From positions 1 through 36,618 of IMG/VR virus record IMGVR_UViG_3300033741_000186: a stretch of DNA of 36,618 nucleotides; one strand, 5' to 3'. The number at the start of each line of letters is the position of its first letter. Positions within the stretch are counted from its first letter, which is position 1. Origin of the DNA: a virus. Lineage: Duplodnaviria; Caudoviricetes. Below, piece by piece: positions 3 through 36,616 of the stretch. Under the pieces are notes generated by a model. It was given only the letters and a program-made list of their open reading frames with translations. It had not been told where the DNA came from and did not search any database. Both the position numbers and the translations under genes were made by a program.

Positions 3-126
3 GAGGGTGTAGTGTCTCTACATAGCCAACGAAAGGGCACACCATGAACCTCTGCATCCGATGCAACGCAGCCCCCGCAAATCACGCTCTATGCGTCGAT
101 TGCAAGGCCGAGCTAAAAGCCCAAGC
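3..126. repeat. Terminal direct repeat, left copy (identical to 36493..36616)
   Basis: Exact 124-bp match at an offset of 36,490; indicates a circular or circularly permuted genome, most likely an assembly overlap. Confidence 0.95.
8..22 (+). promoter_or_regulatory. Early promoter -10 with palindromic operator (copy of 36498..36512)
   Basis: TGTAG-TGTCT-CTACA, followed by SD GAAAGGG and ATG at 44. Confidence 0.75.
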
Positions 127-232
127 CACAGCCGAGGTGCAGCCGATCCAGCAGGCCCGCGATGCCGCCCGGCAGGAATCGGCCGAGCGCAGCCGCAAGT
201 CTTGGGCATTGCTGACAGGTAAGAATTTCTAA
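44..232 (+). CDS. Small Zn-finger-like hypothetical protein
   Basis: CIRC...CVDC motifs; strong SD; first gene after the promoter. Confidence 0.75.
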   Translation: MNLCIRCNAAPANHALCVDCKAELKAQATAEVQPIQQARDAARQESAERSRKSWALLTGKNF

Positions 233-627: not shown

Positions 628-902
628 GCAAAATTTCCCTCGTCGTGCTCTGCTCAACGAGGGTGCGCGCTTTGCAGGTTGCTCGGGCCCGGGGCGTGCC
701 ATCCACGGCCGTATTGTGGCCCAGCTCGGCCGAGGATCTAACCGGGACGGACGGCGTGCCCGTGTACGTCGATTACAGCGTGTTTGAGCATCCAGCGGCC
801 GCTGCGTTGCTGGCGGCATTTACGGCCCGCGCAAACGTCACTGGGGCCCGCAGGGCGGACGCAGCAAGACTTGCGCGGCAACGCGGTAAGGAACTAAACT
901 AG
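624..902 (+). CDS. Hypothetical protein
   Basis: ATGA overlap with the previous gene. Confidence 0.7.
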   Translation: MSKISLVVLCSTRVRALQVARARGVPSTAVLWPSSAEDLTGTDGVPVYVDYSVFEHPAAAALLAAFTARANVTGARRADAARLARQRGKELN

Positions 903-930: not shown

Positions 931-1410
931 ATGAACGACACACCTAAAGCAGTGGAACGTATCAAGAAACGGCTAAGCGCCCAAATGGTCGTTAGCGGCC
1001 TTGCCCACGCTCAGCCCACAAAGTGCGAGGAGCTGCTGGACGTTTTTGACGAGGCGACGAGCGGCCTAATTATTTTCGACGCCGAGACAGGCGAAATGCT
1101 GCACACCGGCCCCGGCTCGACAGGCGAAATCTGGCAAAAGATCGCCGCCCAGTGCTTGCCCGGGATGCCCGCCGAGCTTGTCTCTAAAGCCTATGGCGAC
1201 TGGCTAGATGCCGACATTGACCCGCAGCCGTTTGCTATCGGCTCAACCGTCACGCACCGCGAGCTGAGGGCTATGCGTGGCAAGGTAATCGAGCGCATCG
1301 AGGACTCTGGCGAGCTGCATACTCTGCACGTTAGCTGGAGCCCACGCCCCAATCGTGGCGCGTCATCCGGCTACTACAGCCCCCGCGAGCTGGAGCAGGT
1401 GAAAGCATGA
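931..1410 (+). CDS. Hypothetical protein
   Basis: SD GAAAGGGG-ACAAC-ATG. Confidence 0.8.
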   Translation: MNDTPKAVERIKKRLSAQMVVSGLAHAQPTKCEELLDVFDEATSGLIIFDAETGEMLHTGPGSTGEIWQKIAAQCLPGMPAELVSKAYGDWLDADIDPQPFAIGSTVTHRELRAMRGKVIERIEDSGELHTLHVSWSPRPNRGASSGYYSPRELEQVKA

Positions 1411-7855: not shown

Positions 7856-9873
7856 TCTCCACGAGTGACGCCGAGCGCTATGCTGAGCCCCTTGCGGCCA
7901 TCTACCGAGATGCAGAGCTGCGCATCCTGAACACCATTACGCAAGCACTCGCCGAGGGTGTAGACGCCCCAAGCTGGGAGCAGTTGCAGCTCGGGAGAAT
8001 GCAGCGCGTGCGCAAGCTGGCCGTTGCCGAGCTGGAGACGGTCAACGCTGCGGCCGCCGTCGAGATCCAGCGCGCCCTCAACTCGGCCTATTCGGATGGG
8101 GCCGCTAGTGCGTTTGCTGACGCGGCCGGGGTGCTTGACCCTATCGAGGCGCTACCCGCTCAACGCATCGCCGCCGTCAAGCGCCTAACCGCTGCAACCA
8201 TAGACGGCCTCAGCTCGGCCGAGAATGCCATGCTGCGCTCGGTTGACGACGTTTACCGTGCCGTCGTGGCCCAGAGCGTTGCGGGCGTCGTAGCGGGCGA
8301 CGTGACGCGCCGGGCGGCCACTCAGTCAGCCATCGACCAGTTTCTAAGCAAGGGCATAACCGCCGTGCAGACACGGCGCGGCAAGATGGACATTGCGACC
8401 TACTCAACGATGGCAATGCGCACCGCAGCAGCCCGCTCCACCCTTGAGGGGCACACTGAAACAATGGGCGAGCTGGGGCTGGATCTCGTCACGATCAACC
8501 CCGGCCCGAGGCCCTGCGATATTTGTGACAAGTGGGCCAGTAAGCTCCTCGCCGTGCGTGGCCCTGTCGGCCGCCTAGAGCTAAAGGATCTCGCGGGAGA
8601 GGGCACGGTTAGCGTCGTTGTGGATGCGACGCTGGACGAGGCACGCTCTGACGGTTTCGGGCACCCTAACGACCGCTGTAACCTGAAATCGTTTATGCCG
8701 GGGATCTCGACCAAAGAGGATCTAAAGCGACCCCCGTGGGATGAGGACGGATACCGGGCGCAGCAGGGCCAGCGGGCCAACGAGCGCCAGATTAGGGCAT
8801 GGAAAACGCGCGAGGCCACAAGTATCGACCCGCGCCGGGCAGCAGAGGCCCGCCAGAACGTCAAGCACTGGCAGCAGGTGCAACGCGATCATATGGACGC
8901 CAACCCATTCCTAAAGCGCCAGTCAAAGCGGGAGCAGATAGGCGGCATTTTCAGCGGCAACGAGCGCACCGCTGTAGACCTGCGCCAGCTCGACCAGTTC
9001 AGCCCTACGGCCAAGGCCATAAAGGCGGCCAGCTCGACGCCGTTGCTCGACAAGCTGCCCAAGCTCAAGCGCGCCGAGACTCTAGGCGACGCGACTAAAG
9101 GGCTCACGGCCAACCCGGGCAACGGGCTAGACGACCTGTATGGAGTCAACTGCACCTATGTCGTGGCGGCCGCCGAGATGCGCGCCCGGGGGCTTGACGT
9201 GATCGCGCGCCCGCTGGATCTCTCCCAGTCGGCGGGCGGCGGTGGCCGCTCGCTCGTGCAGGTGCGCACAGAGTGGCGCTCTACGCTCAACCCCGGGGCT
9301 GAGTTTGTATATTACAAGGGTGGCAGGCGCGGGCTCGATAAGGGGCTGATTGAGGACTGGCCAGACGGTGCTCGCGGTTTCGTAAATATCGAGTGGCGTG
9401 GTGGCGGTGCCCATATTTTCAACGTGGGAAAAGTGGACGGCAAAGTCGTCTACTACGACGGCCAGCGCTCGGCTCCTGACATTGACGGCTATTTTGCCAG
9501 CCGCAAAAACGGCACAGGGTTTTTCGTCATGCGCACAGATGACCTAGAGCTAACCGAGGAGCTGAACGATCTAGTCTATGCAGCAGATGGGCCCGAGGCC
9601 ATAAAGCTCGCGCAGGATCAGGCGGCCAAGGCCGCCAGCTCGGCAAAACTCAAGGCTGACGCTCAGGCCAAGATTGCAGCCGCCAAGGCCGCCGAGGCCG
9701 CTGGGGATCTCCCCATATTTCAGGCCGAGGTGGACAAGCTGCAAGACAACCTCAAAAAGGCCCGCGAGCTGTTTGGCGACGATGACGCCGCGCCCCCTAT
9801 CGCCCGCCTGCTGAGTCGTCTAAAGGTGGCCGAGGAGTCGCTGGACGAGGCGCGCAAGAGGTCGAGCAGTTGA
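7852..9873 (+). CDS. Minor capsid protein (Phage_min_cap2/MuF-like) fused to a papain-fold toxin domain
   Basis: N-terminal PCDICDKW, GFGHPNDRC, QRANERQIRAWK and KRQSKREQI motifs; C-terminal NC (9148-9153), GGGAH (His 9412-9414) and YYDGQ (Asp 9457-9459). Confidence 0.85.
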   Translation: MISTSDAERYAEPLAAIYRDAELRILNTITQALAEGVDAPSWEQLQLGRMQRVRKLAVAELETVNAAAAVEIQRALNSAYSDGAASAFADAAGVLDPIEALPAQRIAAVKRLTAATIDGLSSAENAMLRSVDDVYRAVVAQSVAGVVAGDVTRRAATQSAIDQFLSKGITAVQTRRGKMDIATYSTMAMRTAAARSTLEGHTETMGELGLDLVTINPGPRPCDICDKWASKLLAVRGPVGRLELKDLAGEGTVSVVVDATLDEARSDGFGHPNDRCNLKSFMPGISTKEDLKRPPWDEDGYRAQQGQRANERQIRAWKTREATSIDPRRAAEARQNVKHWQQVQRDHMDANPFLKRQSKREQIGGIFSGNERTAVDLRQLDQFSPTAKAIKAASSTPLLDKLPKLKRAETLGDATKGLTANPGNGLDDLYGVNCTYVVAAAEMRARGLDVIARPLDLSQSAGGGGRSLVQVRTEWRSTLNPGAEFVYYKGGRRGLDKGLIEDWPDGARGFVNIEWRGGGAHIFNVGKVDGKVVYYDGQRSAPDIDGYFASRKNGTGFFVMRTDDLELTEELNDLVYAADGPEAIKLAQDQAAKAASSAKLKADAQAKIAAAKAAEAAGDLPIFQAEVDKLQDNLKKARELFGDDDAAPPIARLLSRLKVAEESLDEARKRSSS

Positions 9874-9909
9874 CAACTAAACCGCGTTAGGGTGTAGGGT
9901 GTCTATACA
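9870..9909 (+). promoter_or_regulatory. Early promoter with operator, overlapping the toxin stop codon
   Basis: TTGACA(9870)-19 nt-TAGGGT; TGTAG-GGTGT-CTATACA. Confidence 0.7.
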
Positions 9910-9939: not shown

Positions 9940-10482
9940 ATGAACGCCGAAACCGCCACCGCATTCGTCTCAAACCTTGAGGCCCCCGAGGTGTACGCCG
10001 CCAAGGCCGCCGATTGCCGCAAGCGCAGCGCCGAGTCATGGGAACGCAGCGACTCAGATGGATTTCTCAGCCAGTGGGCCAACGACAAGGTAGCCCTTGA
10101 CTACGATTACGCCGCATCTGTTGCCGCAAACGGTGGCAAGCTGGAGGATCTAGCCCTATTTTTCAACGGCCAGCTCGCCAGCCATAAGCAGCTCAATGGC
10201 CAGTGGGGCATTTACTGGGTGCTCAACGACGAGGCTGCCGAGGCATACGGCAAGCGTTTTTTTAGCGGCTCAAACGCCAAAAACTCGGTGCAGCGCGACC
10301 GGGCTAAGGGTTTCACTTATGGCACGGTTTCAATCGTGGCTCTGTTCAGCCAGCGCACGGGTGACGTATTCCCGCACCCCGAGGCGCTTGCCGCTGGACA
10401 GTTCGAGATCCTTAGCACAGATGGCGCGTATGACCATATCGAGCAGGGTGAGGCCGACCGCATTGCCGAGGCCCGCGCATGA
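9940..10482 (+). CDS. Hypothetical early protein
   Basis: SD GAAAGGG; the ESWERSDSDGFLSQWA motif recalls an unannotated actinophage family (from memory). Confidence 0.8.
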   Translation: MNAETATAFVSNLEAPEVYAAKAADCRKRSAESWERSDSDGFLSQWANDKVALDYDYAASVAANGGKLEDLALFFNGQLASHKQLNGQWGIYWVLNDEAAEAYGKRFFSGSNAKNSVQRDRAKGFTYGTVSIVALFSQRTGDVFPHPEALAAGQFEILSTDGAYDHIEQGEADRIAEARA

Positions 10483-10742
10483 CTGAAACGGGAAATACCC
10501 TAGTCGTATCATTCCCAGACCCCGCCGAAATGGAAACCATCAGGCTCGGGCGAATTCTTATTGACGCATACGAGTGGGCGATGACTTATGGCGTCGTGGC
10601 CCACGCCCTGCGCGTCGAGGAGCGCCCACTAGGCCAAACCCGCGCACTCTATGTTGTTGCCACCGTCAGAGGCGAGGAGTACGCCGAGCCGCTACGGGCC
10701 GCCGAGACGCAGGCGGCCCGCAAGGCTGCTAAGAATGGCTAG
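10479..10742 (+). CDS. Hypothetical protein
   Basis: ATGA overlap. Confidence 0.7.
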   Translation: MTETGNTLVVSFPDPAEMETIRLGRILIDAYEWAMTYGVVAHALRVEERPLGQTRALYVVATVRGEEYAEPLRAAETQAARKAAKNG

Positions 10743-10779
10743 ACGGCACCGAGCCGCCAGCCCGAGAGGAGAACTGGAA

Positions 10780-11070
10780 ATGCTGACATTTGAGGAGGCC
10801 CGCGAGATCGCGCTGCCCCAAATCCAAGAGGTTTACAAAGAGGGCCCGGCGATGACCGTGGCCGAGCACGGCTGGGAGGACGAGACGCACTTTGCGCTCA
10901 TCATCGAGCCGGTCGTGCCCGAGCCCGGCAATATGATCGTTGACGACGTGCAGACGCTCATCACGAAACGGGGCGGGATCTTGCAGCAGGTCAACGCGCT
11001 CGACAACCTTGGCCGCGAGTGGGCTGAGGTGGGCGACTGGCCCGAGCTGGACGAGGAGGCGGGCGCATGA
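10780..11070 (+). CDS. Small acidic protein, candidate toxin immunity protein (Imm35/YrhB-like)
   Basis: SD GAGAGGAG; MLTFEEAREIA...GWEDETHF...LITKRGG pattern; lies close to the papain-fold toxin. Confidence 0.5.
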   Translation: MLTFEEAREIALPQIQEVYKEGPAMTVAEHGWEDETHFALIIEPVVPEPGNMIVDDVQTLITKRGGILQQVNALDNLGREWAEVGDWPELDEEAGA

Positions 11071-16729: not shown

Positions 16730-17221
16730 ATGGCTGAAAATGAACTAGGCGAGCTATTTGATTTTCTGGAGGATGACGGCCTGACAACCCCGCCAGTAAA
16801 GGGCAAGAAATACCCCGAGGGCAAGGTATACGTCATCCCCTCGCCAGACGCCGAAACCGGCGCACGGCTGACCGCTCTAGGGGAGCTGGGCGTCAAGCTT
16901 GAAAAGGGCCTAGAGGTAACAGAGAACGACATGAAGCGCCTACGGCTCAACGACGCCGAGGAGCGGGAATTTGCTGAGCAAGTTCTGGGCTCGGCGCTGC
17001 CCGAGCTATTCGAGGATGGCGTGAGCTGGGTCATCATCCAACGCCTAACCAAATTCGCATTTGTCCACTTTTCGATCTCGCCAGAGGCCGCCCGCGAGGC
17101 AGCGCAACGAGGCGTTTTCTCGGGAAAAGCGCTAGCCCGGAATCGGGCGCAGCGCCGGGCAGACGCGAGGAGTGGCGCGGCCCACAAGGCCCCACAGGGC
17201 TCCACCGATTTGAGGGTGTGA
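16730..17221 (+). CDS. Tail assembly chaperone (G)
   Basis: Lies between the major tail and tape measure genes; contains a slippery site. Confidence 0.85.
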   Translation: MAENELGELFDFLEDDGLTTPPVKGKKYPEGKVYVIPSPDAETGARLTALGELGVKLEKGLEVTENDMKRLRLNDAEEREFAEQVLGSALPELFEDGVSWVIIQRLTKFAFVHFSISPEAAREAAQRGVFSGKALARNRAQRRADARSGAAHKAPQGSTDLRV

Positions 17222-17454
17222 AAAACTCCTCAAACGGTAGCGGCCTCGGCTGGCTGGATTTCTTGAGCAACTGGCGGTTAGTAGAGCTGGACTTTCAAGA
17301 GTTTTACAGCATCGACCTCGGCACCCCCGGCCTAATGCGCGCGCGCTCGTGGCGCTGGCTATCATTGCGCCTAATTGGGTTACTCTCTATGGAGGGCAGG
17401 GTGCAGCGGGTACTGCGGCCCACTGAGCAACCCGGGCTGCCCGGGACTAACTAG
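17122..17454 (+). CDS. -1 frameshift extension of the tail assembly chaperone (GT)
   Basis: G GGA AAA at 17122-17128 in canonical phase; -1 frame is open to TAG 17454 and contains W.LVELDFQEFY.IDL...RSWRWL..R..GLL. Confidence 0.85.
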   Translation, partial: GKSASPESGAAPGRREEWRGPQGPTGLHRFEGVKNSSNGSGLGWLDFLSNWRLVELDFQEFYSIDLGTPGLMRARSWRWLSLRLIGLLSMEGRVQRVLRPTEQPGLPGTN

Positions 17455-24450: not shown

Positions 24451-24796
24451 CAAGATCCAGATTGACGAGCGGGCCGTGTCGGCCGAGGGGACGCCGACGC
24501 AGGTGGCTAACCCTAAGCGTGCAACCCTGCGCACTGTCCTCGCCATCTTGGCCGGGCTCGTGCTCGCGCTGCCCTTGGTCAACTCCATGCTTGCGATTCT
24601 GCAAGAGGAGCTGCACAAGGTTACGGCGTTCGACATTCCCGGGTGGGTTTATGTTGCCATCAACCTCGCCGTGGGCGGCGTCGCCCTTGTCGGCGGCCTC
24701 GTCACTCGCTGGATGGCAGCAGCTCGCGCTAATGAGTGGATCAAGCGACACCTGCCGGGCATCGCGGCTATTCCGCTTGAGCCTGCCGACAAGTAA
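24440..24796 (+). CDS. Putative holin
   Basis: TQVANPKRATLRTV, two TM segments, TRWMA....NEWI; resembles actinophage holins. Confidence 0.7.
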   Translation: MTTDKIQIDERAVSAEGTPTQVANPKRATLRTVLAILAGLVLALPLVNSMLAILQEELHKVTAFDIPGWVYVAINLAVGGVALVGGLVTRWMAAARANEWIKRHLPGIAAIPLEPADK

Positions 24797-24808
24797 CAAC
24801 GCTTGAGA

Positions 24809-24853
24809 AGAGAGCCCTCACGGCCCCGCATTGGGTGCTGCTGGGGGCTCTCT
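24809..24853. terminator. Hairpin between convergent operons
   Basis: Stem AGAGAGCCCTCA/TGGGGGCTCTCT. Confidence 0.7.
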
Positions 24854-24905
24854 CGTCGTTTGCGGCCCGGTGCGTCCACTAAGGCACCGCAAGGGTGAAA
24901 GTGGC

Positions 24906-25250
24906 TTAGATCGCCGCTGAGCGCCGCAGCGCGTACAGCTCACGACGACGCGCGAGGCGGGCTCGGCGCTTGGCGGCCTCGGCTGCTCGCTGCACGGCCC
25001 CATCCCGAGCGTTGCAGCCCATGCACGCCGGGCGCACGTTGCCCTTGCGATAGCGCCCACCCCGGCGAGCAGGCACCGGGTAAAGATCTTTCGTGAGGGT
25101 GCTAAAAAATAGCGGGCACTCACAGAACGAGCACGGGGCGGTAATCCCATCGCCAAACTCGGCAAGCATCCAGAGCTTGAGCGCCCGGCCGATATGGGCA
25201 CCCGGGCGGCGGTTTTTGTTGCTGCCCCTCGTCTCCCGGCGCTGGCTCAT
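24906..25250 (-). CDS. HNH-like endonuclease
   Basis: CSFC...GG.Y..GNVRPACMGCN; the first catalytic His appears replaced (TKDLYP). Confidence 0.75.
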   Translation of the reverse strand: MSQRRETRGSNKNRRPGAHIGRALKLWMLAEFGDGITAPCSFCECPLFFSTLTKDLYPVPARRGGRYRKGNVRPACMGCNARDGAVQRAAEAAKRRARLARRRELYALRRSAAI

Positions 25251-25495
25251 CGGTATTGCTCCAGCACACTCTCGGCCAAGTGCTGCCCCGGGGCGACTAT
25301 CAGGCGCGCTAGGCCGTCAGAGAAACTCTCGGCCGGGATCTCGTAGGCCCGGCCCGGCCTCATGGTCGAGCTGCGCACGATGCGCTCGGGCGGTGGGTTG
25401 AGCATCACGGCAAGGATCTCGGCGCTCTCGGCGTCAGCCTGCTCTTGCAGCTTGGCGTTGATCGCTCGGCCCCACGCCTTAAGAAACTTGTCCAC
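25247..25495 (-). CDS. Hypothetical protein
   Basis: SD GGGGAGG; ATGA overlap with the HNH gene. Confidence 0.65.
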   Translation of the reverse strand: MDKFLKAWGRAINAKLQEQADAESAEILAVMLNPPPERIVRSSTMRPGRAYEIPAESFSDGLARLIVAPGQHLAESVLEQYR

Positions 25496-25832
25496 GATCC
25501 AGAACCTCCCCTGTCAGCTTGTGGAGTGCGTACCCGCAATCTAGGCAGGTGTCAAAGCGTCGCGCCCGGTGGAGCTTGCGACCGTGCCCGCACAGCGGCG
25601 ACGCCCAGAGAGTGAAAGCGCCGGGCGGGATTCTGCCCTTGCCCTCACGCTCCAGCCATACAATCCCGGCAGCGTCGGCCTGAGCTTGCAGCTCGTGCTC
25701 GTGGGCTTGCATGTTGTGAGTGTCGGCCGCGTGCTGGGCGAGGGTGCGCAACTGCCAGCCGCTCGCCCTGCTCTTGCACTCTCGGCAGCTATAGCCGTAG
25801 CCGTCTCGGGTCGGCGTTACTTTGGCGGTCAC
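25479..25832 (-). CDS. Zn-finger protein
   Basis: CREC...H...H and C.H...CLDC motifs. Confidence 0.7.
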   Translation of the reverse strand: MTAKVTPTRDGYGYSCRECKSRASGWQLRTLAQHAADTHNMQAHEHELQAQADAAGIVWLEREGKGRIPPGAFTLWASPLCGHGRKLHRARRFDTCLDCGYALHKLTGEVLDRGQVS

Positions 25833-26227
25833 TCTGCACTCAGCTCGTGGATGGCGTTGGCGATCACCTTGGCGGCGATCCTGTCGCCACTCATGCGGGC
25901 CTCGGTATATCGTTTGCGGGCGATGGCCTCGGCGGCGTCGCGGCCAGCCTCAAAACCGTCAAGAAACGAGCGATTGCCGGGCTGGGTGGGCCTCTCGCCT
26001 CGCAGATCCAGCAATATCGCGGCCATTCTGGGGGCGGCCCCAGACAGCGCTACTGTCGTGGACAGCTCACCCGCTGCGGCCCACTCGACAGCCTTGGTAT
26101 AGACCGCAAGCGCGGCAATGATCGCCGAGCGCATCGCCTCGCCATCGCTGGCGTCGAGCGCCGACGATAGTGCGAGGCGGTCAATCTGGGCGTGCAGCTC
26201 GGCGCGGATCTCGTTAGTTGTGCTCAA
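25829..26227 (-). CDS. Hypothetical protein
   Basis: Start moved to TTG 26227 (TTGA overlap, SD GAGGAG). Confidence 0.65.
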   Translation of the reverse strand: MSTTNEIRAELHAQIDRLALSSALDASDGEAMRSAIIAALAVYTKAVEWAAAGELSTTVALSGAAPRMAAILLDLRGERPTQPGNRSFLDGFEAGRDAAEAIARKRYTEARMSGDRIAAKVIANAIHELSAE

Positions 26228-26763
26228 TTTTCCTGCTCCTCGTCTAGTTTCTTTTCGGCCCACTCGGGATTGAGGTACGCCTCCACGAGCAGGTCAGCCC
26301 ATGAACGATCCCCTATCTCCCATGCGGATAGCTTGCGAGCCGCAGCCATGCCGCGCTCGTGATCGTGAGGTGCCACCTGCTCGGCCTTGACGGTGCGCGG
26401 CCGCTTGACCGCTAGCACCTGCTCGACGGATGCCGAGCGGGCAACCTGCCAAACAATCGACGGGCTACCGCCGAGAGTGTCGCGCTTGACCGTCTGGCCA
26501 TCGTCGTCGCGCAGCTCGGAAACAAACCCGGCCAGCACTAGCTCGTGCCGTCTCGTGCGTACCCCGCTGGGGCTCGTGCTCGTAATGCGACCGGCCGAGA
26601 TAAGCAGCTCCTCATCGGTCATGGGGCGGCCGCTCAGGGCCTCATAAATGCGGGCGCGCAGGGCGGCCGTTTTCGTGGGCGTCTGTCGCGCTGCGGCCTC
26701 CCAGCTCGTCTCGGGATCGCGGGCTCTAACCTTGCCCCGGTATTCGGTGGAGTCGTGCGTCAT
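26224..26763 (-). CDS. Winged-HTH DNA-binding protein
   Basis: RARDPETSWEAA...PMTDEEL...SPSGVRTRRHELV..GFV. Confidence 0.75.
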   Translation of the reverse strand: MTHDSTEYRGKVRARDPETSWEAAARQTPTKTAALRARIYEALSGRPMTDEELLISAGRITSTSPSGVRTRRHELVLAGFVSELRDDDGQTVKRDTLGGSPSIVWQVARSASVEQVLAVKRPRTVKAEQVAPHDHERGMAAARKLSAWEIGDRSWADLLVEAYLNPEWAEKKLDEEQEN

Positions 26764-26786
26764 GTTGTCCTCTTTCGTGGGATCTA

Positions 26787-26825
26787 TGTAGTGACCCTAC
26801 ACGCCAAGGCGGTAAGGCTGCAAAC
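26787..26825 (-). promoter_or_regulatory. Leftward early promoter with operator
   Basis: On the minus strand TTGCAG-18 nt-TAGGGT; TGTAG-GGTCA-CTACA; SD GAAAGAGG. Confidence 0.75.
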
Positions 26826-27121
26826 TATTTACGCTTATCGGCGCGCCGCATCGCCCGATTCTGATACCCCGGGCGCAGGCTCGCCAGCTCGGCCCGCTTA
26901 GCTTGAGGGTTGACGGCCTCAACAATTAGACCGTCTTTTATCATCTGCTCAAGCTTGGCGATCTCGGCCGGATCTCCACCCTGACGCACAAGCGCAAGCA
27001 CGCCCGGCGACGCAATAACGGGGTTACTCCAGAGCGGCCCCTCTTTCAGCTTTTGCTCGTCTGGCGGCATATCCATATGGCTCGAAACTAGGGTTAGCAG
27101 GGCGTCAGATTGCACGCTCAT
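26825..27121 (-). CDS. Hypothetical protein
   Basis: ATGA-coupled; C-terminal NRAMRR. Confidence 0.7.
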   Translation of the reverse strand: MSVQSDALLTLVSSHMDMPPDEQKLKEGPLWSNPVIASPGVLALVRQGGDPAEIAKLEQMIKDGLIVEAVNPQAKRAELASLRPGYQNRAMRRADKRK

Positions 27122-27204
27122 CTTGTGGCCTCATTCTGTGTTGTCGGCTTGGGGATCGTGGGCAGGTGGAAAGCCTGCTCTGTGAGGTCGTCGCGCTCGC
27201 TCAT
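27118..27204 (-). CDS. 28-aa microprotein (absent from the ORF track)
   Basis: MSERDDLTEQAFHLPTIPKPTTQNEATR; ATGA overlaps at both ends. Confidence 0.6.
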   Translation of the reverse strand: MSERDDLTEQAFHLPTIPKPTTQNEATR

Positions 27205-27395
27205 TGGACAAGCCCCCGGCCGGAAACCCAGCCGCGCAGGAAACTTTGCTCATCCCGCCACGTCATCGCAAAGCCCCGGAACGCGACCATATCGGCCCAG
27301 ATTTTGAGATCTCGCAGATACATAACTCGCAGCCGCTCGGGCAGCTCGTCAACGGTCAGCGTCTCGGGCAGCTCGGGAGTCGTTGACGCGCTCAT
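27201..27395 (-). CDS. Hypothetical protein
   Basis: ATGA overlaps on both ends. Confidence 0.65.
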   Translation of the reverse strand: MSASTTPELPETLTVDELPERLRVMYLRDLKIWADMVAFRGFAMTWRDEQSFLRGWVSGRGLVQ

Positions 27396-27775
27396 GCGGC
27401 AGCCCCCTCGCCCGGGTAGACGTATTCAATGGCGGTGCGCAGGCGTCGCTGTACCTCGGCCAGCAGTAGCCCCTGAGTGAGTTGTCCCCAGCCGACGAGC
27501 GCCGGGACTACAGCCTCAAACTCGGCAATATCAACGTGCCGGGGGATCGCGCCGTGCTCGGAATCCTTGACGTGCTCGGCCATGAAATCAGCGGATAGCT
27601 CAAAGTCCACGAGTAGATCTCGCATCAAGTCAGCCGCGCGCTCGGGCACGTCGATGAGGCGCTGGGGGCTTTCGTATCGCCAAACAATTCCCACGGTTAC
27701 GCCGAGGCGCTTGGCGATAAATAGGGCGCTGACGCCGAGCGATTCTCGGGCCGTCTTGAACTCTGCCGGGGTCAT
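27392..27775 (-). CDS. Aca2/YdiL (DUF1870)-like HTH transcriptional regulator
   Basis: MTPAEFKTARESLGVS...IAKRLGV....VWRYES....DVP.....LMRDL and C-terminal P..VGW..LTQ resemble Aca2 along the full length (from memory); 127 aa. Confidence 0.65.
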   Translation of the reverse strand: MTPAEFKTARESLGVSALFIAKRLGVTVGIVWRYESPQRLIDVPERAADLMRDLLVDFELSADFMAEHVKDSEHGAIPRHVDIAEFEAVVPALVGWGQLTQGLLLAEVQRRLRTAIEYVYPGEGAAA

Positions 27776-27813
27776 TGCAGCACGATCTCGTTGCGTGCGG
27801 TTGTCGTTTTCAT
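27772..27813 (-). CDS. 13-aa leader ORF coupled to the HTH gene
   Basis: SD GAGAGG-ACAAC-ATG; MKTTTARNEIVLQ; its TGA overlaps the HTH ATG. Confidence 0.6.
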   Translation of the reverse strand: MKTTTARNEIVLQ

Positions 27814-27841
27814 GTTGTCCTCTCGTTTGTGGCGGTTGCCA

Positions 27842-27903
27842 TGTAGACACCGTACACGAGATTTAGTTTGCGTGTAAACCGTTCTAGGTGTACGGTTACT
27901 ACA
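27842..27903. promoter_or_regulatory. Overlapping divergent promoters, each with an operator
   Basis: Plus strand TTGCGT-17-TACGGT with TGTA-N7-TACA at 27889-27903; minus strand TTTACA-18-TACGGT with TGTA-N7-TACA at 27842-27856. Confidence 0.8.
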
Positions 27904-27934
27904 TACCCACTAACCGCCACTCGAAAGGCACACA

Positions 27935-28543
27935 ATGTCAACCAAGCACAGCGCGATCCTCCCAGATGGAACCGTAGCCACCCGCAAGAGCGAGAACAAC
28001 GTTTACCCGTTTCTCGTCGCAGTAGGCCCCGCCCCCAAGGCCGAGGTCATCGCCGGGCTGCACGCTGACATTGATTACCAGAGCAAGCTCGCCGCCCGCT
28101 ACACAGTCGCAGCCGATTACGCCGAGGCTGGCCGCTCCATGAAATTGCGGGCCGCCCGCTACACCCCCAAGGCCGACGAGGGCAGCTGGATCGCCACCGA
28201 GGCCGAGGCTCGCGCCGAGCTGGGGCAAGACGTAGAGCTGGGCCGCCAGTACACCTACACGGGTCAGATAACCGTCTCGGATATTGTCGTGGATGGCACC
28301 GAGGCAAGCGCCCGGGCCGCCATCGTGACGACGTACCGAGGATATGCCGCTGGCTGCGTTGAGCGCGTCGCCAACCGCAAGCAGGCCATCGCTGACGCTG
28401 AGGCTGGCCCGGATCTCGTGGGCTCGTGGAGAGTATCGGGATGGCAGAGCCGGTCAGATCTCGCGGCCAAGCAGCGGGACAAGATGCGCCGCTCATTCCC
28501 GGCCCGCGAGGTTGTCGTTATCACGGCCACAATCGCCAAGTAG
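27935..28543 (+). CDS. Hypothetical early protein
   Basis: SD GAAAGG; has its own promoter and downstream hairpin. Confidence 0.8.
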   Translation: MSTKHSAILPDGTVATRKSENNVYPFLVAVGPAPKAEVIAGLHADIDYQSKLAARYTVAADYAEAGRSMKLRAARYTPKADEGSWIATEAEARAELGQDVELGRQYTYTGQITVSDIVVDGTEASARAAIVTTYRGYAAGCVERVANRKQAIADAEAGPDLVGSWRVSGWQSRSDLAAKQRDKMRRSFPAREVVVITATIAK

Positions 28544-28551
28544 TCCCACCC

Positions 28552-28573
28552 GGGGCCGCCAACTGGCGGCCCC
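28552..28573 (+). terminator. Perfect hairpin
   Basis: GGGGCCGCC-AACT-GGCGGCCCC. Confidence 0.65.
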
Positions 28574-28582
28574 ACTCAGCCC

Positions 28583-28621
28583 GGTTTGCGCCTAAACCGT
28601 TTAGGGTATACGCTTAGTACA
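28583..28621 (+). promoter_or_regulatory. Early promoter with operator
   Basis: TTGCGC-17-TACGCT; TATAC-GCTTA-GTACA. Confidence 0.75.
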
Positions 28622-28644
28622 CACCGCCACCGAAAGGGCACCCC

Positions 28645-28806
28645 ATGCTATTCCACCGGATCATTGAAACCACGAGCTGCCCCACTTGCGACGCCGCAAA
28701 AGGCCAGCCCTGCCGCAAGCTGACCCTGAGCGGGCAGCAACGCCCGGCTAGCTACAATCACCCGGCCCGCACGGCAGCTTTCCGCAAGGCCGAGGCCACC
28801 GCATGA
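28645..28806 (+). CDS. 53-aa Zn-finger protein (absent from the ORF track)
   Basis: SD GAAAGGG; CPTCDAAKGQPCR...HPAR. Confidence 0.75.
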   Translation: MLFHRIIETTSCPTCDAAKGQPCRKLTLSGQQRPASYNHPARTAAFRKAEATA

Positions 28807-28988
28807 GCGAGTCGCGCAAGCTGCGCCTGCTCGGCCTCGTGCTGGCCGTTGAGGGCCTGCTGGGCTCTGGCCTCGTGCTGGCAGGCTGGGAGGTTGCTGG
28901 CGGGCTAGCATTCCCGTTGTCGGCGGCTGGCGGCATCGTTCTCATCGTGGCCAACCGGCCCCGGAAACGACGCAGGCCCCGAGCCTAA
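28803..28988 (+). CDS. Small two-TM membrane protein
   Basis: ATGA overlap; hydrophobic core and Arg-rich tail. Confidence 0.7.
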   Translation: MSESRKLRLLGLVLAVEGLLGSGLVLAGWEVAGGLAFPLSAAGGIVLIVANRPRKRRRPRA

Positions 28989-29079
28989 GCCCGGGGCCAT
29001 TGCCCGAAAGGGTAGCGGCAGAGAAACCGCAACACACAACTAAAGTAAACCACACAACCGAAAGAAAAGAGAAACCGGA

Positions 29080-30144
29080 ATGACAACCAAGACGCTAGAG
29101 GATGGCGGGCTCATCGTTTACTCAGATGGCAGCGACCGCGAGCAGTGGCTAGGGGCTAGACGTGGCAAGTACACAGCCACGACCGTCACGGCCATCGCAG
29201 GCAGTAACCCGTATACCAAACTGATCGACGTATGGAACGACTTTACAGATCCCGAATACGACCCCGAGGCGCTGCGAAACCGCTGGCTAGAGGAGCGGGC
29301 AGCGTTTGGTCAAGAGCGCGAGCCCGAGATTATCAAGTGGGCCAGCGAGGCCACCATCACGGGCGGCCCCGGTAACCCGTTTATTCCCAGCAGCGCCCTC
29401 GTCGGCCTGCCCGAGCTGGAGGAGTTTGGCGGCGTTTGCACCCCTGACGGTTACAAGTTTGCCCGCGAGGATGGCCTAGTGCTGATCGAGGCCAAGGCGT
29501 CCCAGCAGAACTGGAAAGAGGACGGCCTGCCACAACATATTTACGATCAGGTGCAGTGGCAGATTTACACCACTGGGGCCGTCACGGTTTGGATCGCGCA
29601 GGATCTCGTCAAGTGGGTTGGCAGGGGTGCGAACAAACAGGCCACAGTTGACGAGTCTTATCGTTACCTGCTGCCGGTGCGCCGCGATCAGGCCCGCCTT
29701 GATTTCCTGCTGCGCAAGGTCGATTGGTTCAAGGGCCTACTGGCTGCGGGCATCGCGCCCGAGTCTGACGTTGACCTGCGGGAGCTGGCCGAGCCTGATT
29801 TTGACTCAACCGTGGAGGACATTGCGGCATGGGAAGAGGCCGTCAAGGTTGACGAGTTACTTACCGAGCTGGCCGAGATCCGTGCCCGCATGGCGGTTGA
29901 CGCAAAGCGCGACGAGGCAATCGTGGCCGAGGTCAAGAGTGTTATCAAGGAATACGAGGGCCGCAGAATTTGGCTCATAGGCACGCGGTTTATTGCTAAA
30001 CTTGCGCGAGGCACGAGGACGACGCTGGCAACGAAAGACTTGCCCGCTGAAACCTTGCGCAGCATTACAGGCTGGGCCGATTCTGAAACGGTCAAGTTTG
30101 AGATCAACCCCGAATATGTAGCAACCAAAACAGAGAGCGAGTAA
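29080..30144 (+). CDS. YqaJ/RecE-like (lambda exo-type) exonuclease
   Basis: REQWL..RR...TAT, TPDG, LIEAK, Y.QVQWQ motifs. Confidence 0.9.
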   Translation: MTTKTLEDGGLIVYSDGSDREQWLGARRGKYTATTVTAIAGSNPYTKLIDVWNDFTDPEYDPEALRNRWLEERAAFGQEREPEIIKWASEATITGGPGNPFIPSSALVGLPELEEFGGVCTPDGYKFAREDGLVLIEAKASQQNWKEDGLPQHIYDQVQWQIYTTGAVTVWIAQDLVKWVGRGANKQATVDESYRYLLPVRRDQARLDFLLRKVDWFKGLLAAGIAPESDVDLRELAEPDFDSTVEDIAAWEEAVKVDELLTELAEIRARMAVDAKRDEAIVAEVKSVIKEYEGRRIWLIGTRFIAKLARGTRTTLATKDLPAETLRSITGWADSETVKFEINPEYVATKTESE

Positions 30145-32442: not shown

Positions 32443-32754
32443 ATGAGCAACAAAGCAATAACTTGGGCGTTCGATCAAGAGCTGCCGACGATAGACAAAT
32501 TTGTTCTCGTCGTGCTGGCTGACTACGCCGACGAGGCTAACTCGTGCTTTCCCGGGCAGCAAAAGATCGCAGCCAATACCGGCGCGAGTGTTAGCACCGT
32601 CAGGCGGGCTCTGGGCAGGCTTGAGAGGCACAAACTCATCGCCCGCGACCGCAGACAACGGCGCGACGGATCTCGCACGTCTGACCGCTACACGCTCCAG
32701 TTAGAGCCTGTGGATAACCCTGTGGGAAATCCAAGCGGTCAAATTGACCTGTAG
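32443..32754 (+). CDS. Short wHTH replication initiator (HTH_36-like N-terminal domain only)
   Basis: AITWAF...KFVLVVLADYADE..SCFPGQ..IA..TG.SVSTVRRAL..LE...LI.R. Confidence 0.8.
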   Translation: MSNKAITWAFDQELPTIDKFVLVVLADYADEANSCFPGQQKIAANTGASVSTVRRALGRLERHKLIARDRRQRRDGSRTSDRYTLQLEPVDNPVGNPSGQIDL

Positions 32755-32885
32755 GCAATCTGACCGGGCCTAGCGGTCACCCGTGAACAGGCATTAACCC
32801 CCAGTCTTAACCCCCAGCTATATCCAGCTTGTGCATAACAGGTCACCGTTGCGCGGGAGGCTCAGGCATTGCGCCGGTCAATCGC
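32709..32885. other. Putative replication origin
   Basis: DnaA-type boxes TGTGGATAA (32709) and TGTGCATAA (32830); palindrome GGTCAAATTGACC plus related GGTCA repeats; TTAACCCCCAG twice. Confidence 0.65.
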
Positions 32886-32906
32886 TACGCGATCACCCGC
32901 CCTAGA

Positions 32907-32935
32907 TTGACTCTCAACGAATAAGGCACTAAGTT
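32907..32935 (+). promoter_or_regulatory. Sigma-A promoter without the operator
   Basis: TTGACT-17-TAAGTT. Confidence 0.65.
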
Positions 32936-32980
32936 CTCAGTAAGTCAGTAAACCAGCCCACGAAAGGGGCGCACAAGATC

Positions 32981-33586
32981 ATGGCTAGAGTCCATAAAGT
33001 TGAAAAATCCGCTAAGAGTCATCAATGCGGCAGAGGCCACGAGATCCCCAAGGGCGAGCCGTATCTCTGGGCAAAGCCCGGGTTTCGCACGCGCACGCCG
33101 TCAATCCGCTGCGTCAGGCATCCGTTCAGGGCGTCCGAGCTGACGACCTCGCTGCGCTCTGGGCCGCTAGCAGCTCAAGAGGCTTTTGACGACGCCCTAA
33201 GCGAGATTGACCAGACTGCCGCCGAGGCGCTGGACGAGCTGACCTCGGCTCTGGAGGAGTTTCAGAACGAGGTGCGCGACTATGCCGACCAGCGCCGCGA
33301 GAGTGCTGACGCTTGGGAATACGGCAACGAGCAACTGGAGGAGCTGGCTGACTTGGCCGAGCAGGCCGCCGACGAGCTTGAGGGTTTCGAGGTCGAGGAG
33401 TGGGATGGCGACGAGGATGCCCGCGTGACTGACCCCGGCGACGAGCCAGACGACACCGAGAGCACTGAGTACACAGAATGGGAGGATGCCAGCGAGGCCC
33501 ACGAGGAGGCCGTGCAGAGCTGGGCCGACCATGTTGAGGAGCAATTCAACGAGGCCAGCGAGATCTCGGCCGGGCTGGAGTTCTAG
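32981..33586 (+). CDS. Protein with a basic Zn-binding N-terminus and a very acidic helical C-terminus
   Basis: C...H.IPKGEPY.W...C..H followed by a D/E-rich region. Confidence 0.8.
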   Translation: MARVHKVEKSAKSHQCGRGHEIPKGEPYLWAKPGFRTRTPSIRCVRHPFRASELTTSLRSGPLAAQEAFDDALSEIDQTAAEALDELTSALEEFQNEVRDYADQRRESADAWEYGNEQLEELADLAEQAADELEGFEVEEWDGDEDARVTDPGDEPDDTESTEYTEWEDASEAHEEAVQSWADHVEEQFNEASEISAGLEF

Positions 33587-33964
33587 GTGGCCCGCATCCC
33601 GCGCCTGTACCGGGTTATTTCTCGGCACCGCGACACAACGAGCGAGACGCGCCACTATCAGACCCCCGAGGCGGCCAAGGCCCGCGCCGAGCTGTTTGCC
33701 AAGGCCGACAAGGATGCCACGATCTCCATTGAGCCCTCGCACCCGGTAACGTACCCACGGCCGAGCGGCGACCCGAGCCCGCTGGACATTCCAGACACGC
33801 TAGTCTCTCGTGCGGTCGTGGATGATTTTGCCGCCCAGCTCGGGCTCAAGTCGAGCGCCGTGCAGCTCGTGATTGTCGAGCCCGAGGAGGTCGTTGTTCA
33901 GTATCAGCCAGACCCCACGGGCAAGCGCGCGCCTAAGTTCTGGCGCGTGTCGTTTTTGGATTAG
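33587..33964 (+). CDS. Hypothetical protein
   Basis: SD GGAG; abuts the previous stop codon. Confidence 0.7.
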   Translation: MARIPRLYRVISRHRDTTSETRHYQTPEAAKARAELFAKADKDATISIEPSHPVTYPRPSGDPSPLDIPDTLVSRAVVDDFAAQLGLKSSAVQLVIVEPEEVVVQYQPDPTGKRAPKFWRVSFLD

Positions 33965-34001
33965 TTTGCAGGTTTACTATTCGGTGTGTATGGTTACTAC
34001 A
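33964..34001 (+). promoter_or_regulatory. Early promoter with operator
   Basis: TTGCAG-17-TATGGT; TGTA-TGGTTAC-TACA. Confidence 0.75.
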
Positions 34002-34027
34002 TACCGACCGCCACCGAAAGGCACCCC

Positions 34028-34273
34028 ATGAACAACACTCACAGAGATCACAACTACCGCATTGCAACCGACACGCTCGACAGCGGCAAGGTCAGGGCCA
34101 AGGCTCGCGGGCGCAAAACAAACGCCCAGACATTCCCAGCAGGCACGACTCACGAGGACGCCGCAACCAAGCTAGCCGCAAAAATCGGCGGCCCCAGATT
34201 CGCCCACGTCAAAGAGCTAACCTCAAACCCAAACGGCAGCAGCCGAGACTTTGCAATTTTCGTAACGTTCTAA
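34028..34273 (+). CDS. Small basic hypothetical protein
   Basis: Start moved to ATG 34028 after SD GAAAGG. Confidence 0.75.
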   Translation: MNNTHRDHNYRIATDTLDSGKVRAKARGRKTNAQTFPAGTTHEDAATKLAAKIGGPRFAHVKELTSNPNGSSRDFAIFVTF

Positions 34274-34331: not shown

Positions 34332-35195
34332 ATGAAAACACGCGCTACCGGGGCGGCAATTCTCGCCCTCACTCTCGCTCTGGGCGGCACACTGCTCGGC
34401 GCTGCTGGAGCCTCGGCCGACGAGGCAGAACGCAAGCAGCCAAAGGTGACAATCTGCCACCTGACGGCAAGCGCCAGCAACCCCTCGGAAACTATCGACG
34501 TGGCCGAGGCATCGCTGCCTGCGCATGTTGCCCACGGCGACACGCTGGGCGAGTGCGCCCCTGAACCTGAGCCCGAGCCGACACCTGACCCGAGCCCCAC
34601 GCCAGAGCCCACGCCCACCGAAACCCCCGAGCCAGCCGTTGAGCAGCACGAGGCCAGCGAGTGCGCCTCAACAACCGAATACACAACAACGACGTGGACG
34701 ACGACAGACGGCGTTATCTCTGATGAGGTCAGCGATTCACGCCAGCTCGACCGGGCCGACGCGATCACCCTAGGCTGCTACACGCCGCCCATTATTGATT
34801 GCGCCGAGTGGACAGTGCCCGGGTGGCTCAACGAGCACGGCGACGCCACGAGCTGCGTGAGCAATAACCCCTGCCCCGAGGTAGAGCCCGGCGAAACTTG
34901 CCCGGGTGACGAGGTGCCCACAGATGAGCCAACCGAGCCCACTGACGAGCCCACCGAGCCCGAGGTGCCCGTTGAGGTGCCAACCGACACGGCCGAGCCA
35001 GTAGTGCCAGCAGTCGAGCCGGTTGAGGCTATCAACGTTGTGCCCGCAGCAGCAGCGACAAAGCTGCCCGCAACGCTCGCCTACACGGGCGAAAAGTCAG
35101 AGGGCCCGAGTATCCTAGCCCTCGGCGCGTTTGCGCTCATGCTCGGCCTCGCCCTCGTCGTCGTCGCAGCTCTACCAGCAAAGCAAGGGGCCTAA
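34332..35195 (+). CDS. Secreted, sortase-type (LAXTG) cell-wall-anchored protein
   Basis: Signal peptide ending ASA; KVTICH...AHVAHGD domain; PE/PT stalks; LAYTG at 35076-35090, then a TM helix. Confidence 0.8.
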
Positions 35196-36472: not shown

Positions 36473-36473
36473 A

Positions 36474-36512
36474 GTTTGCGCGCTTACCGCGCGAGGGTGT
36501 AGTGTCTCTACA
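36474..36512 (+). promoter_or_regulatory. Early promoter with operator
   Basis: TTGCGC-18-TAGTGT; TGTAG-TGTCT-CTACA. Confidence 0.75.
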
Positions 36513-36616
36513 TAGCCAACGAAAGGGCACACCATGAACCTCTGCATCCGATGCAACGCAGCCCCCGCAAATCACGCTCTATGCGTCGATTGCAAGGCCG
36601 AGCTAAAAGCCCAAGC
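36493..36616. repeat. Terminal direct repeat, right copy
   Basis: Identical to 3..126. Confidence 0.95.

What the first reader, a model, noticed from the sequence alone, without database searches (positions are those of the whole stretch)
27392..27775. Aca2/YdiL-like regulator in an actinophage points to candidate anti-defence genes
Seen: a 127-aa HTH protein expressed from an operator-bearing promoter. Its pattern (MT..E...R..L, W.YES, VP, M.DL, P...GW..L.Q) resembles Aca2/DUF1870, judged from memory. Established: Aca2 represses anti-CRISPR promoters through inverted repeats, can also bind its mRNA leader, and aca genes serve as markers for anti-defence genes. Inference: the first genes behind each operator (44..232, 9940..10482, 27935..28543, 28645..28806, 34028..34273) and the small genes downstream of the regulator are candidate new Acr or anti-defence proteins.
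Basis: partly seen in the sequence, partly recalled or inferred. Interest (0 to 1): 0.78.

Follow-up and report, generated by a model that had tools for sequence, protein, structure and literature searches.

The report
Aca2-fold repressor of phage early genes
This actinobacterial phage encodes a distant structural relative of the anti-CRISPR regulator Aca2 that likely switches off about ten early promoters spread over its whole genome; none of the genes behind those promoters matched a known anti-CRISPR, so it is only a weak pointer to anti-defence genes.

Summary
The protein (27775..27392, minus strand, 127 aa) is a real Aca2/YdiL-fold homologue. Its family profile hits Aca2 across both domains (E 1.5e-6), the fold matches Aca2/SO3848/YdiL (Z 10.0-10.7; HTH-only hits 7.9 or less), and the predicted dimer uses Aca2's interface. 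It is not an Aca2 member: it fails PF08965, lacks Arg30, falls in a separate clade and has no acr gene in front, only a 13-codon micro-ORF. Seven early promoters carry two palindromes (IR-A over -35, IR-B over -10/+1). IR-A also sits at three further promoters in other positions, so it is the likelier operator. Relatives with close orthologues keep both palindromes; Microbacterium phages with a different recognition helix have a different palindrome at 5-6 promoters; 6 controls lacking the gene show only scattered matches. The predicted regulon includes RecE/RecT and a second DNA-binding gene, so it looks like whole-genome early shut-off, not an acr cassette. Candidate first genes are highly variable and unannotated, with no Acr hit; one such slot in a relative holds a DNA methyltransferase. 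Binding is untested, and a conserved winged-helix protein is a rival binder. New variant of a known kind; moderate interest.

The parts
27392..27775 (-). Aca2/YdiL-fold HTH protein (P0001, 127 aa), predicted dimeric repressor
27772..27813 (-). 13-codon micro-ORF with strong RBS; its stop overlaps the regulator's start (ATGA), likely translational coupling; it occupies the slot where acr genes sit in acr-aca2 operons
   Evidence: relatives have a 6-codon ORF (L018) or a 48-57 aa hydrophobic peptide (G001, G002, G003, G005, G006) in this slot
27841..27904 (.). Divergent early promoter pair: IR-B 27841-27857 (leftward), shared IR-A 27865-27880, IR-B 27888-27904 (rightward)
   Evidence: same layout in G001, G002, G003, G005, G006 and L018
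26786..26826 (-). Class I promoter (IR-A 26811-26826, IR-B 26786-26802) of the winged-helix gene
26224..26763 (-). Conserved putative winged-helix DNA-binding protein (179 aa; winged-helix label is my reading of the sequence); rival binder of one palindrome
   Evidence: phrog_1123, weak DNA-binding hit phrog_32341; 40-44% identity in G001, G002, G003, G006
28583..28622 (+). Class I promoter (IR-A 28583-28598, IR-B 28606-28622) in front of the zinc-finger gene, membrane gene, RecE and RecT
33963..34002 (+). Class I promoter (IR-A 33963-33978, IR-B 33986-34002) before 34028..34273
36473..36513 (+). Class I promoter (IR-A 36473-36488, IR-B 36497-36513, repeated at 7-23) before 44..232, across the circular junction
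9868..9908 (+). Class I promoter (IR-A 9868-9883, IR-B 9892-9908) of a cassette inside the head module
885..900 (+). IR-A alone, flipped; its right half is the -10 of a promoter for 931..1410 (-35 lies 18 nt upstream)
32939..32954 (+). IR-A alone, just downstream of a -10 (over the predicted start site), before 32981..33586
29987..30002 (+). IR-A alone inside the 3' end of recE; likely internal recT promoter (-10 only); the Gingerbug-type phages have their own palindrome at the homologous codons
44..232 (+). First-gene candidate, 62 aa, Cys-rich, no significant family
9940..10482 (+). First-gene candidate, 180 aa, phrog_5855, found in 73 actinophage records; confident model with no solved-structure match
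27935..28543 (+). First-gene candidate, 202 aa, rare; a distant relative is in the same slot of G006
28645..28806 (+). First-gene candidate, 53 aa, PF24623 phage zinc finger (E 7e-9)
34028..34273 (+). First-gene candidate, 81 aa, no homologue found
27201..27395 (-). 64-aa ORF coupled to the regulator's stop; no family, not found in relatives
26825..27121 (-). 98-aa ORF downstream; no family, not found in relatives

Best explanation
The gene encodes a divergent Aca2/YdiL-fold protein that is predicted to form a dimer and likely acts as the phage's genome-wide early-gene repressor. After injection, host sigma-A RNA polymerase would fire about ten strong phage promoters. One of them makes this protein, coupled behind a micro-ORF. 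As it accumulates, it would bind a 16-17 bp palindrome overlapping each promoter (more likely IR-A, RGTTT-N6-WWACY; otherwise IR-B, RTGTA-N7-TACAY). That would damp its own operon, the variable first genes, RecE/RecT and a second DNA-binding gene together: a burst-then-shut-off timer for the lytic cycle, not a dedicated acr switch. Shown: gene, fold match, palindromes, co-occurrence. Inferred: dimer, binding, repression, timing.
For: Profile and fold match Aca2 over both domains (VIA Z 10.7 Aca2, 10.3 SO3848, 10.0 YdiL, rmsd 3.2-3.8 over 113-123 residues, next 7.9 over 54). The model's order of four helices, strand, two helices, strand is Aca2's (PMC8633003 section 10). Dimer score 0.82 against best control 0.01; runs agree in 100% of contacts, pLDDT 94; the mark was reached by 20 of 30 true pairs and 1 of 23 single chains; contacts 2-12 with 79/81, 99-109, 115-120 match the published Aca2 interface, so the pass may be from likeness. 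Its own promoter carries both palindromes. IR-A lies over the -35 (7 promoters), the -10 (885, 29987) or the start site (32939), and flips orientation. Close relatives keep it (1-11 sites each in 6 records); 7 other phages have 0-2, the shuffle level. A motif-only scan of viral contigs gave 6 contigs, 5 of which carry the gene. Gingerbug, DelaGarza, Lesiram and G004 have a different recognition helix and a different palindrome at 5-6 promoter-type sites, including the gene's own; it is absent from the window, G001, G003 and Pickles13. Six control phages without the gene show only scattered matches. No integrase among 62 ORFs.
Against: No binding or repression data. The phages that share gene and palindromes are relatives and also share the winged-helix gene, itself behind such a promoter, so co-occurrence does not say which protein binds. 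IR-B is partly dictated by the promoter: its left half holds the -10, and in relatives the ATG of leaderless genes starts in its right half; sliding by -2 still gives 60% pairing against 71%. IR-A's left half holds the -35 at class I promoters. The weight matrices and symmetry counts were built from the window's own sites, so the window counts are circular. Three fragments with such promoters lack the gene (G007 12% complete and AT-rich, G008 32%, G009 25%). Half-site spacing differs from Aca2 IR1 (16 bp core there; 14 in IR-A). A sigma-70 consensus scan found no promoter in 24500-29200.
Confidence: 0.62

Rival explanations
1. Classical acr-aca2 logic: the genes first behind the operators and next to the regulator are new anti-CRISPR proteins.
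For: Real Aca2 homology. Aca2 can regulate up to three neighbouring operons, and an actinobacterial Aca2 RNA motif exists (PMC13551039 sections 18 and 22). The first genes are small, variable and strongly expressed by inference.
Against: 0 of 7 candidates hit an Acr in Pfam, PHROGs, NCBIfam or PDB sequences. The acr slot holds 13 codons. Base rate is 3%. The likely host group mostly lacks CRISPR-Cas. No leader hairpins. The 9940 family occurs in Muddy without this regulator.
Confidence: 0.08
2. Compatible extension of the best reading: the first-gene slots are swap-in sites for host-conflict genes (anti-restriction, counter-defence, self-immunity) that need a short early burst, so at least one of the window's candidates is an anti-defence protein.
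For: 0 of 5 named genes are shared with near-complete relatives G001 and G003, which share most structural and recombination genes at 38-76%. Of 14 first genes from relatives, one is a DNA methyltransferase (phrog_757, E 7e-22) and one a topoisomerase-like protein. The 9892 cassette holds a putative immunity gene behind a capsid-borne papain-fold toxin domain.
Against: 12 of those 14 have no functional annotation. Variability alone does not show an anti-defence role, and the same promoters drive core recombination genes.
Confidence: 0.35
3. The palindromes are copies of one strong promoter, or sites for the conserved winged-helix protein (26763..26224); the Aca2-fold protein regulates only its own operon or has another target.
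For: The winged-helix gene is in every close relative long enough to hold it and has both palindromes in its promoter. IR-B overlaps the -10 and start site. Repeated promoter motifs of unknown function occur in other Microbacterium phages without this gene (PMC7302621 passages; Quhwah).
Against: IR-A changes position and orientation against the promoter, which copying does not explain. The Gingerbug group has the Aca2-fold gene and a palindrome but no detectable orthologue of this winged-helix protein (best E 0.19). Aca2-fold dimers are known binders of such repeats.
Confidence: 0.27
4. The protein is an activator of these promoters, or mainly an RNA-binding translational repressor.
For: Aca2 binds leader hairpins (PMC13551039). 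Several Gingerbug-group leaders show hairpin-like repeats by eye.
Against: The sites overlap -35, -10 or +1, the usual repressor positions. The 7 window leaders are 22-33 nt and fold no better than shuffles (z -0.66 to +1.06).
Confidence: 0.05

Closest known systems
Aca2 of Pectobacterium phage ZF40 (PDB 7VJO/7VJQ/8W35; PF08965 Aca2_YdiL)
   Same: HTH plus strand-helix-helix-strand C-terminal domain; predicted dimer through helix 1 and that domain; Glu5 and Arg39 kept; inverted repeats overlap its own promoter.
   Different: 22 of 113 aligned residues identical; Arg30 replaced by Gly; separate clade (support 99/97); below the Pfam threshold; different repeat; no acr upstream; no leader hairpins; about ten promoters genome-wide in a phage with no integrase hit.
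YdiL (1S4K) and SO3848 (2OX6), Aca2-fold proteins without acr
   Same: Same two-domain fold (Z 10.0 and 10.3); found without a known acr (PMC9410906).
   Different: These come from Salmonella and Shewanella, and I found no described targets for them; here a candidate regulon is visible in the phage genome.
Multi-operon Aca regulation (Aca1, Aca2, Aca11, Aca13, Aca14; PMC13551039)
   Same: One regulator, several palindrome-bearing promoters, unannotated first genes.
   Different: Published Aca1/Aca2 cases have up to three motifs clustered near an acr-aca operon; here 9 distinct IR-A sites are spread around 36 kb and cover core recombination genes.
Repeated intergenic motifs of Microbacterium phages (clusters EC, EF, EG, EI; PMC7302621)
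   Same: 5-12 copies of a short, often palindromic motif shortly upstream of start codons.
   Different: Other sequences; no regulator is named in the passages read, and those phages lack this gene. Here a candidate regulator changes together with the motif.

Membership tests
Aca2/YdiL fold (structural superfamily) | N-terminal HTH plus beta-alpha-alpha-beta C-terminal domain | tested here: met
   (predicted model, pLDDT 94.6)
Aca2/YdiL fold (structural superfamily) | Homodimer via helix 1 against the partner's C-terminal domain | tested here: met
   In silico only: 0.82 vs best control 0.01, same interface residues as published; may pass by likeness to solved Aca2
Aca2 (PF08965 / DUF1870) | Pfam gathering score 23.8 | tested here: not met
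   No PF08965 hit at E 0.1 for P0001 or any of the 19 close members; only more distant profile hits pass
Aca2 (PF08965 / DUF1870) | Base-reading Arg30, Tyr34, Arg39 | tested here: not met
   Arg30 aligns with Gly29 and Tyr34 with Arg33 (HMMER's register gives Ile30 and Tyr34); Arg39 kept; residues from PMC8633003 section 11
Aca2 (PF08965 / DUF1870) | Operator with GTTC half-sites 8 bp apart | tested here: not met
   ZF40 IR1 read; window has GTT(T/C) half-sites 6 bp apart (IR-A) and TGTA-N7-TACA (IR-B)
Aca proteins (functional class) | Inverted repeat overlapping its own promoter | tested here: met
Aca proteins (functional class) | acr gene upstream in the same operon | tested here: not met
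   Only a 13-codon ORF lies between promoter and gene; relatives hold 6 codons, a 48-57 aa hydrophobic peptide, or nothing
Aca proteins (functional class) | Regulated genes inhibit CRISPR-Cas | not testable with these tools
   No homology to known Acr; new Acr families would be invisible to these searches
Aca proteins (functional class) | Binds operator DNA and represses | not testable with these tools
   Inferred from position and co-occurrence only
Aca2 RNA-binding layer | Stem-loops in the 5' leader (proteo- or actino-motif) | tested here: inconclusive
   No stable hairpin in 7 of 7 leaders, no Rfam hit; the actino-motif consensus could not be seen (paper not held; not in the supplement text of PMC13551039)
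Generic XRE/HTH_3 repressor | HTH only, or with a non-Aca2 C-terminal domain | tested here: not met
   Full-length match to Aca2-fold proteins stands 2 Z units or more above HTH-only rows

The most novel reading that the evidence does not exclude
A distinct actinophage clade of Aca2-fold dimers serves as the master off-switch of a lytic early programme, with the recognition helix and a genome-wide operator changing together between phage groups. Its promoters are plug-in slots for counter-defence genes other than Acr, so the operator, not gene adjacency, marks new anti-defence proteins such as the 180-aa phrog_5855 family, which has no solved-structure match. It would also name a regulator for one class of the orphan promoter repeats of actinophages.
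Probability: 0.25. Interest if true: 0.72.

Novelty: new variant of a known kind. Interest (0 to 1): 0.45.

Why it matters
It gives a likely job to acr-less Aca2-like proteins, which are 97% of the family in one survey, and warns that an Aca2 fold alone is a poor Acr marker. It links a specific regulator to repeated promoter palindromes in Microbacterium-type phages, where such repeats are reported without a known binder. Cultured phages (Gingerbug, DelaGarza, Lesiram on Microbacterium foliorum) carry a homologue, so the model can be tested directly. The variable first-gene slots give a short list for counter-defence screens.

Tried and rejected
Single-sequence searches do not show the Aca2 link (Pfam HTH_31 E 0.088; PDB best 0.042); only profiles and folds do. 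Foldseek alone gave no E under 0.001, although its top 9 rows were all Aca2 or SO3848. A longer 152-aa ORF from GTG 27850 was rejected: that codon lies inside the promoter, and most homologues start at the same Met, a few with short extensions. No close family member was found in the GTDB genomes (two short patterns, so limited); a wider alignment could not be used for that scan. Muddy gp34, an HTH gene near a 9940 homologue, is not Aca2-like. The 9940 model matched only generic helical hairpins among solved structures (best Z 8.2, residues 10-66), nothing in Foldseek PDB and 4 unannotated viral proteins; its C-terminal part was not folded alone, so this does not show a new fold. Atlas searches for 9940 and 27935 gave no named family. 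A mis-spaced motif scan found nothing; a looser one gave 70 stretches, 66 of them outside the GC-rich family type. The attempt to put AnnaSerena's GTAGAG motif in register was uninformative (1 of 8 sites). blastn of the promoter found no related phage. Earlier scan notes: none.

Full report
Context. The window is a near-complete phage genome, 62% G+C, whose ends overlap by 124 nt (94% complete by CheckV). It has a siphovirus head-tail module, RecE/RecT, SSB and RusA, and no integrase among 62 ORFs scanned. The capsid protein is 62% identical to Microbacterium phage Pickles13, so a Microbacteriaceae host is inferred, not shown.

The protein. 27775..27392 encodes 127 aa. Alone it gives only weak HTH hits. 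It has 18 close homologues at 42-66%. A profile of these 19 sequences finds four Aca2 entries as its only PDB hits under E 0.1 (E 1.5e-6 to 1.9e-4, profile positions 1-97); a 56-sequence profile again ranks Aca2 first. The AlphaFold model (pLDDT 94.6) has four helices, a strand, two helices and a strand, the order described for ZF40 Aca2 (PMC8633003 section 10). Against 48,161 chains, the only three at Z 8 or more are Aca2 (10.7, rmsd 3.8, 114 aligned), SO3848 (10.3) and YdiL (10.0); the next is an HTH-only match at 7.9. A two-copy model scores 0.82 against a best control of 0.01 (runs agree in 100% of contacts, pLDDT 94; mark reached by 20 of 30 true pairs and 1 of 23 single chains). It packs residues 2-12 against 79/81, 99-109 and 115-120, the published Aca2 interface; this may reflect likeness to solved structures.

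Not an Aca2 member. Neither it nor any of the 19 close members hits PF08965 at E 0.1. In a 78-row tree (36 core and 25 distant proteins picked, plus 17 locus proteins including ZF40 Aca2) it falls in a 44-row clade (99/97) with the Gingerbug-group proteins, apart from ZF40 Aca2 and from canonical actinobacterial DUF1870-type proteins. The tree has only 130 columns and ZF40 is a long branch. Identity to ZF40 Aca2 is 22 of 113. Arg30, which reads the C of the GTTC half-site (PMC8633003 section 11), is Gly; Arg39, which reads the G, is kept. The profile finds 386 representatives at E 0.001 or better and 56 at 1e-10, some of them repeat-HTH proteins. Among 50,697 phage records only Gingerbug, DelaGarza, Lesiram and, weakly, Thermobifida P1312 match. 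That the first three form cluster GF is recalled; PMC13631751 (passages) says only that GF has three other members.

The promoters. IR-B, RTGTA-N7-TACAY, occurs 5 times exactly, all at promoters, against 0, 0, 0 and 1 at other spacings; of 5 one-mismatch copies, 2 are at promoters and 3 in coding sequence. It covers the -10 and the predicted start. Seven or eight bases upstream of each lies IR-A, RGTTT-N6-WWACY, over the -35. There are seven such class I promoters: before 44, 9940, 26763 (minus), the regulator's operon (minus), 27935, 28645 and 34028; the divergent pair shares one IR-A. IR-A also occurs without IR-B. At 885 it is flipped and ends in the -10 of a full promoter; at 32939 it follows the -10; at 29987 it lies in the end of recE with a -10 but no -35; a weak tenth match at 16632 has no promoter. 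A site that keeps its sequence while changing place and direction against the promoter behaves like a repressor operator, and its GTT(T/C) half-site is close to Aca2's GTTC. IR-B is partly explained by the promoter itself: in relatives several first genes are leaderless and begin inside its right half. My estimate, if this protein is the binder: IR-A 55%, IR-B 35%, both 10%.

Co-occurrence. Close orthologues (44-52%) in G001, G002, G003, G005, G006 and L018 sit at the same divergent switch with the same two palindromes. IR-A matrix hits number 11, 6, 8, 2, 3 and 1 there (two of G001's repeat one site), against 0-2 in seven other phages and in shuffles; the matrix came from the window, so its own count of 10 is circular. 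A motif-only scan of viral contigs returned 10 stretches on 6 contigs. Five carry the gene, one of them found only this way; the sixth is an AT-rich 12%-complete fragment. Two further fragments with such promoters (G008, G009; 32% and 25% complete) had no match. Gingerbug, DelaGarza, Lesiram and G004, whose homologue has another recognition helix, carry another palindrome over the -10 at 5, 6, 6 and 5 promoter-type sites. These include the gene's own promoter and the same codons in recE where the window has IR-A. That motif has no match in the window, G001, G003 or Pickles13. Five further Microbacterium phages without the gene have 1 exact and 12 one-mismatch IR-B copies in 270 kb. These groups are relatives, so this is two independent contrasts at most. 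The window's group also shares a putative winged-helix gene behind a class I promoter, which could bind one palindrome; the Gingerbug group has no detectable orthologue of it.

What is regulated. By gene order, the promoters feed RecE, RecT, HNH genes, the winged-helix gene and many small ORFs. The slot in front of the regulator, where acr genes lie in acr-aca2 operons, holds 13 codons with a strong ribosome-binding site and an ATGA overlap; in relatives it holds 6 codons, a 48-57 aa hydrophobic peptide, or nothing. 28645 is a PF24623 zinc finger. 9940 belongs to phrog_5855, present in 73 actinophage records, including Muddy, which lacks the regulator. None of the five is in G001 or G003. Of 14 first genes from relatives that I chose to scan, one is a DNA methyltransferase, one a topoisomerase-like protein and 12 have no functional name. 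The seven leaders are 22-33 nt and no more structured than shuffles, so Aca2's RNA layer has no support here.

Mechanism. Most likely (0.62): a negative-feedback timer. Strong host-polymerase promoters give a burst of early proteins; the dimer builds up and occludes them all. Shown: gene, fold match, palindromes, their positions and co-occurrence. Inferred: dimerisation, binding, repression, timing, lytic lifestyle. I put a true Acr among the candidates at about 0.08, and any counter-defence activity among them at about 0.35.

Literature. PMC13551039 (outline, sections 18, 22, 23, passages, supplement text searched) already reports multi-operon Aca regulation, with up to three clustered motifs, and an actinobacterial Aca2 RNA motif; it has no mention of Microbacterium. 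PMC9410906 (passages): 35 of 1223 Aca2-like proteins have an upstream acr. PMC6765145 (passages) and PMC8633003 (passages, sections 10 and 11) define Aca2 binding. PMC7302621 (passages): most Microbacterium strains lack CRISPR-Cas, and several clusters have repeated intergenic motifs of unknown function. PMC3482391 (passages): Imm35 goes with papain-fold toxin Tox-PL1. The 2024 Nature paper on Aca2 RNA binding was not held; it, its supplements and figure-only motifs could already include this clade. Searches for Aca2 with actinobacteria, DUF1870, Microbacterium with cluster GF and Aca2 with lytic phage and early promoters showed no description of this clade or its operators in the listings or passages seen.

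Verdict. Observation confirmed; interpretation partly supported. A new variant of the Aca2/YdiL kind, more likely a whole-genome early repressor than an Acr marker. Interest 0.45.

Noticed in passing
window 7852-9873 and 10651-11070: The minor capsid protein carries a C-terminal papain-fold toxin 1 domain (PF15644, E 6e-9). A putative immunity gene (phrog_3585, E 4e-8) lies in the cassette behind the 9892 early promoter: likely a capsid-borne polymorphic toxin with early-expressed immunity. Imm35 pairs with this toxin type, but no Pfam Imm35 hit was seen.
   Followed up: partly
window 9940-10482: phrog_5855 protein with a conserved ERSDxDGFLSQW motif, in 73 actinophage records; confident model (pLDDT 89) with no clear solved-structure match.
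   Followed up: partly
window 32443-32980: Replication-initiator-like gene is only a 103-aa HTH_36 domain, followed by about 220 nt without a long ORF that holds short repeated words; possible origin, or a truncated initiator.
   Followed up: no
window 34332-35195: 287-aa Pro/Glu/Thr-rich protein with, by eye, a signal-like start, a sortase-like motif and a C-terminal membrane anchor; not found in relatives; possibly a surface or exclusion protein.
   Followed up: no
window 29987-30002; L018:821; Gingerbug 30412: A -10 element is kept at homologous codons near the end of recE in both phage groups; G001, G002 and G003 instead have an IR-A-type site at the recE stop; likely internal recT promoter.
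   Followed up: partly
L028:2209-2844 (-) and L028:13890-14795 (-), G001: First genes behind class I promoters are a leaderless DNA methyltransferase and a 302-aa topoisomerase-like protein.
   Followed up: partly
L001 (Gingerbug), L035, L036, G004: Leaders behind this group's palindrome often show hairpin-like inverted repeats by eye, including one around the regulator's own ribosome-binding site; not folded. A possible RNA layer in that subgroup.
   Followed up: no
L013 (494 nt upstream of match) and L015 (1059 nt upstream): Canonical actinobacterial DUF1870-type operons share another palindrome, CTTCC-N-GGAAG type, in their promoters.
   Followed up: no
L061-L063 (Quhwah): Nine copies of an 18-bp promoter motif over a -10, in a phage without this regulator; binder unknown.
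   Followed up: no
window 16730-17454: Two adjacent tail-assembly-chaperone ORFs, the usual frameshift pair; ordinary.
   Followed up: no
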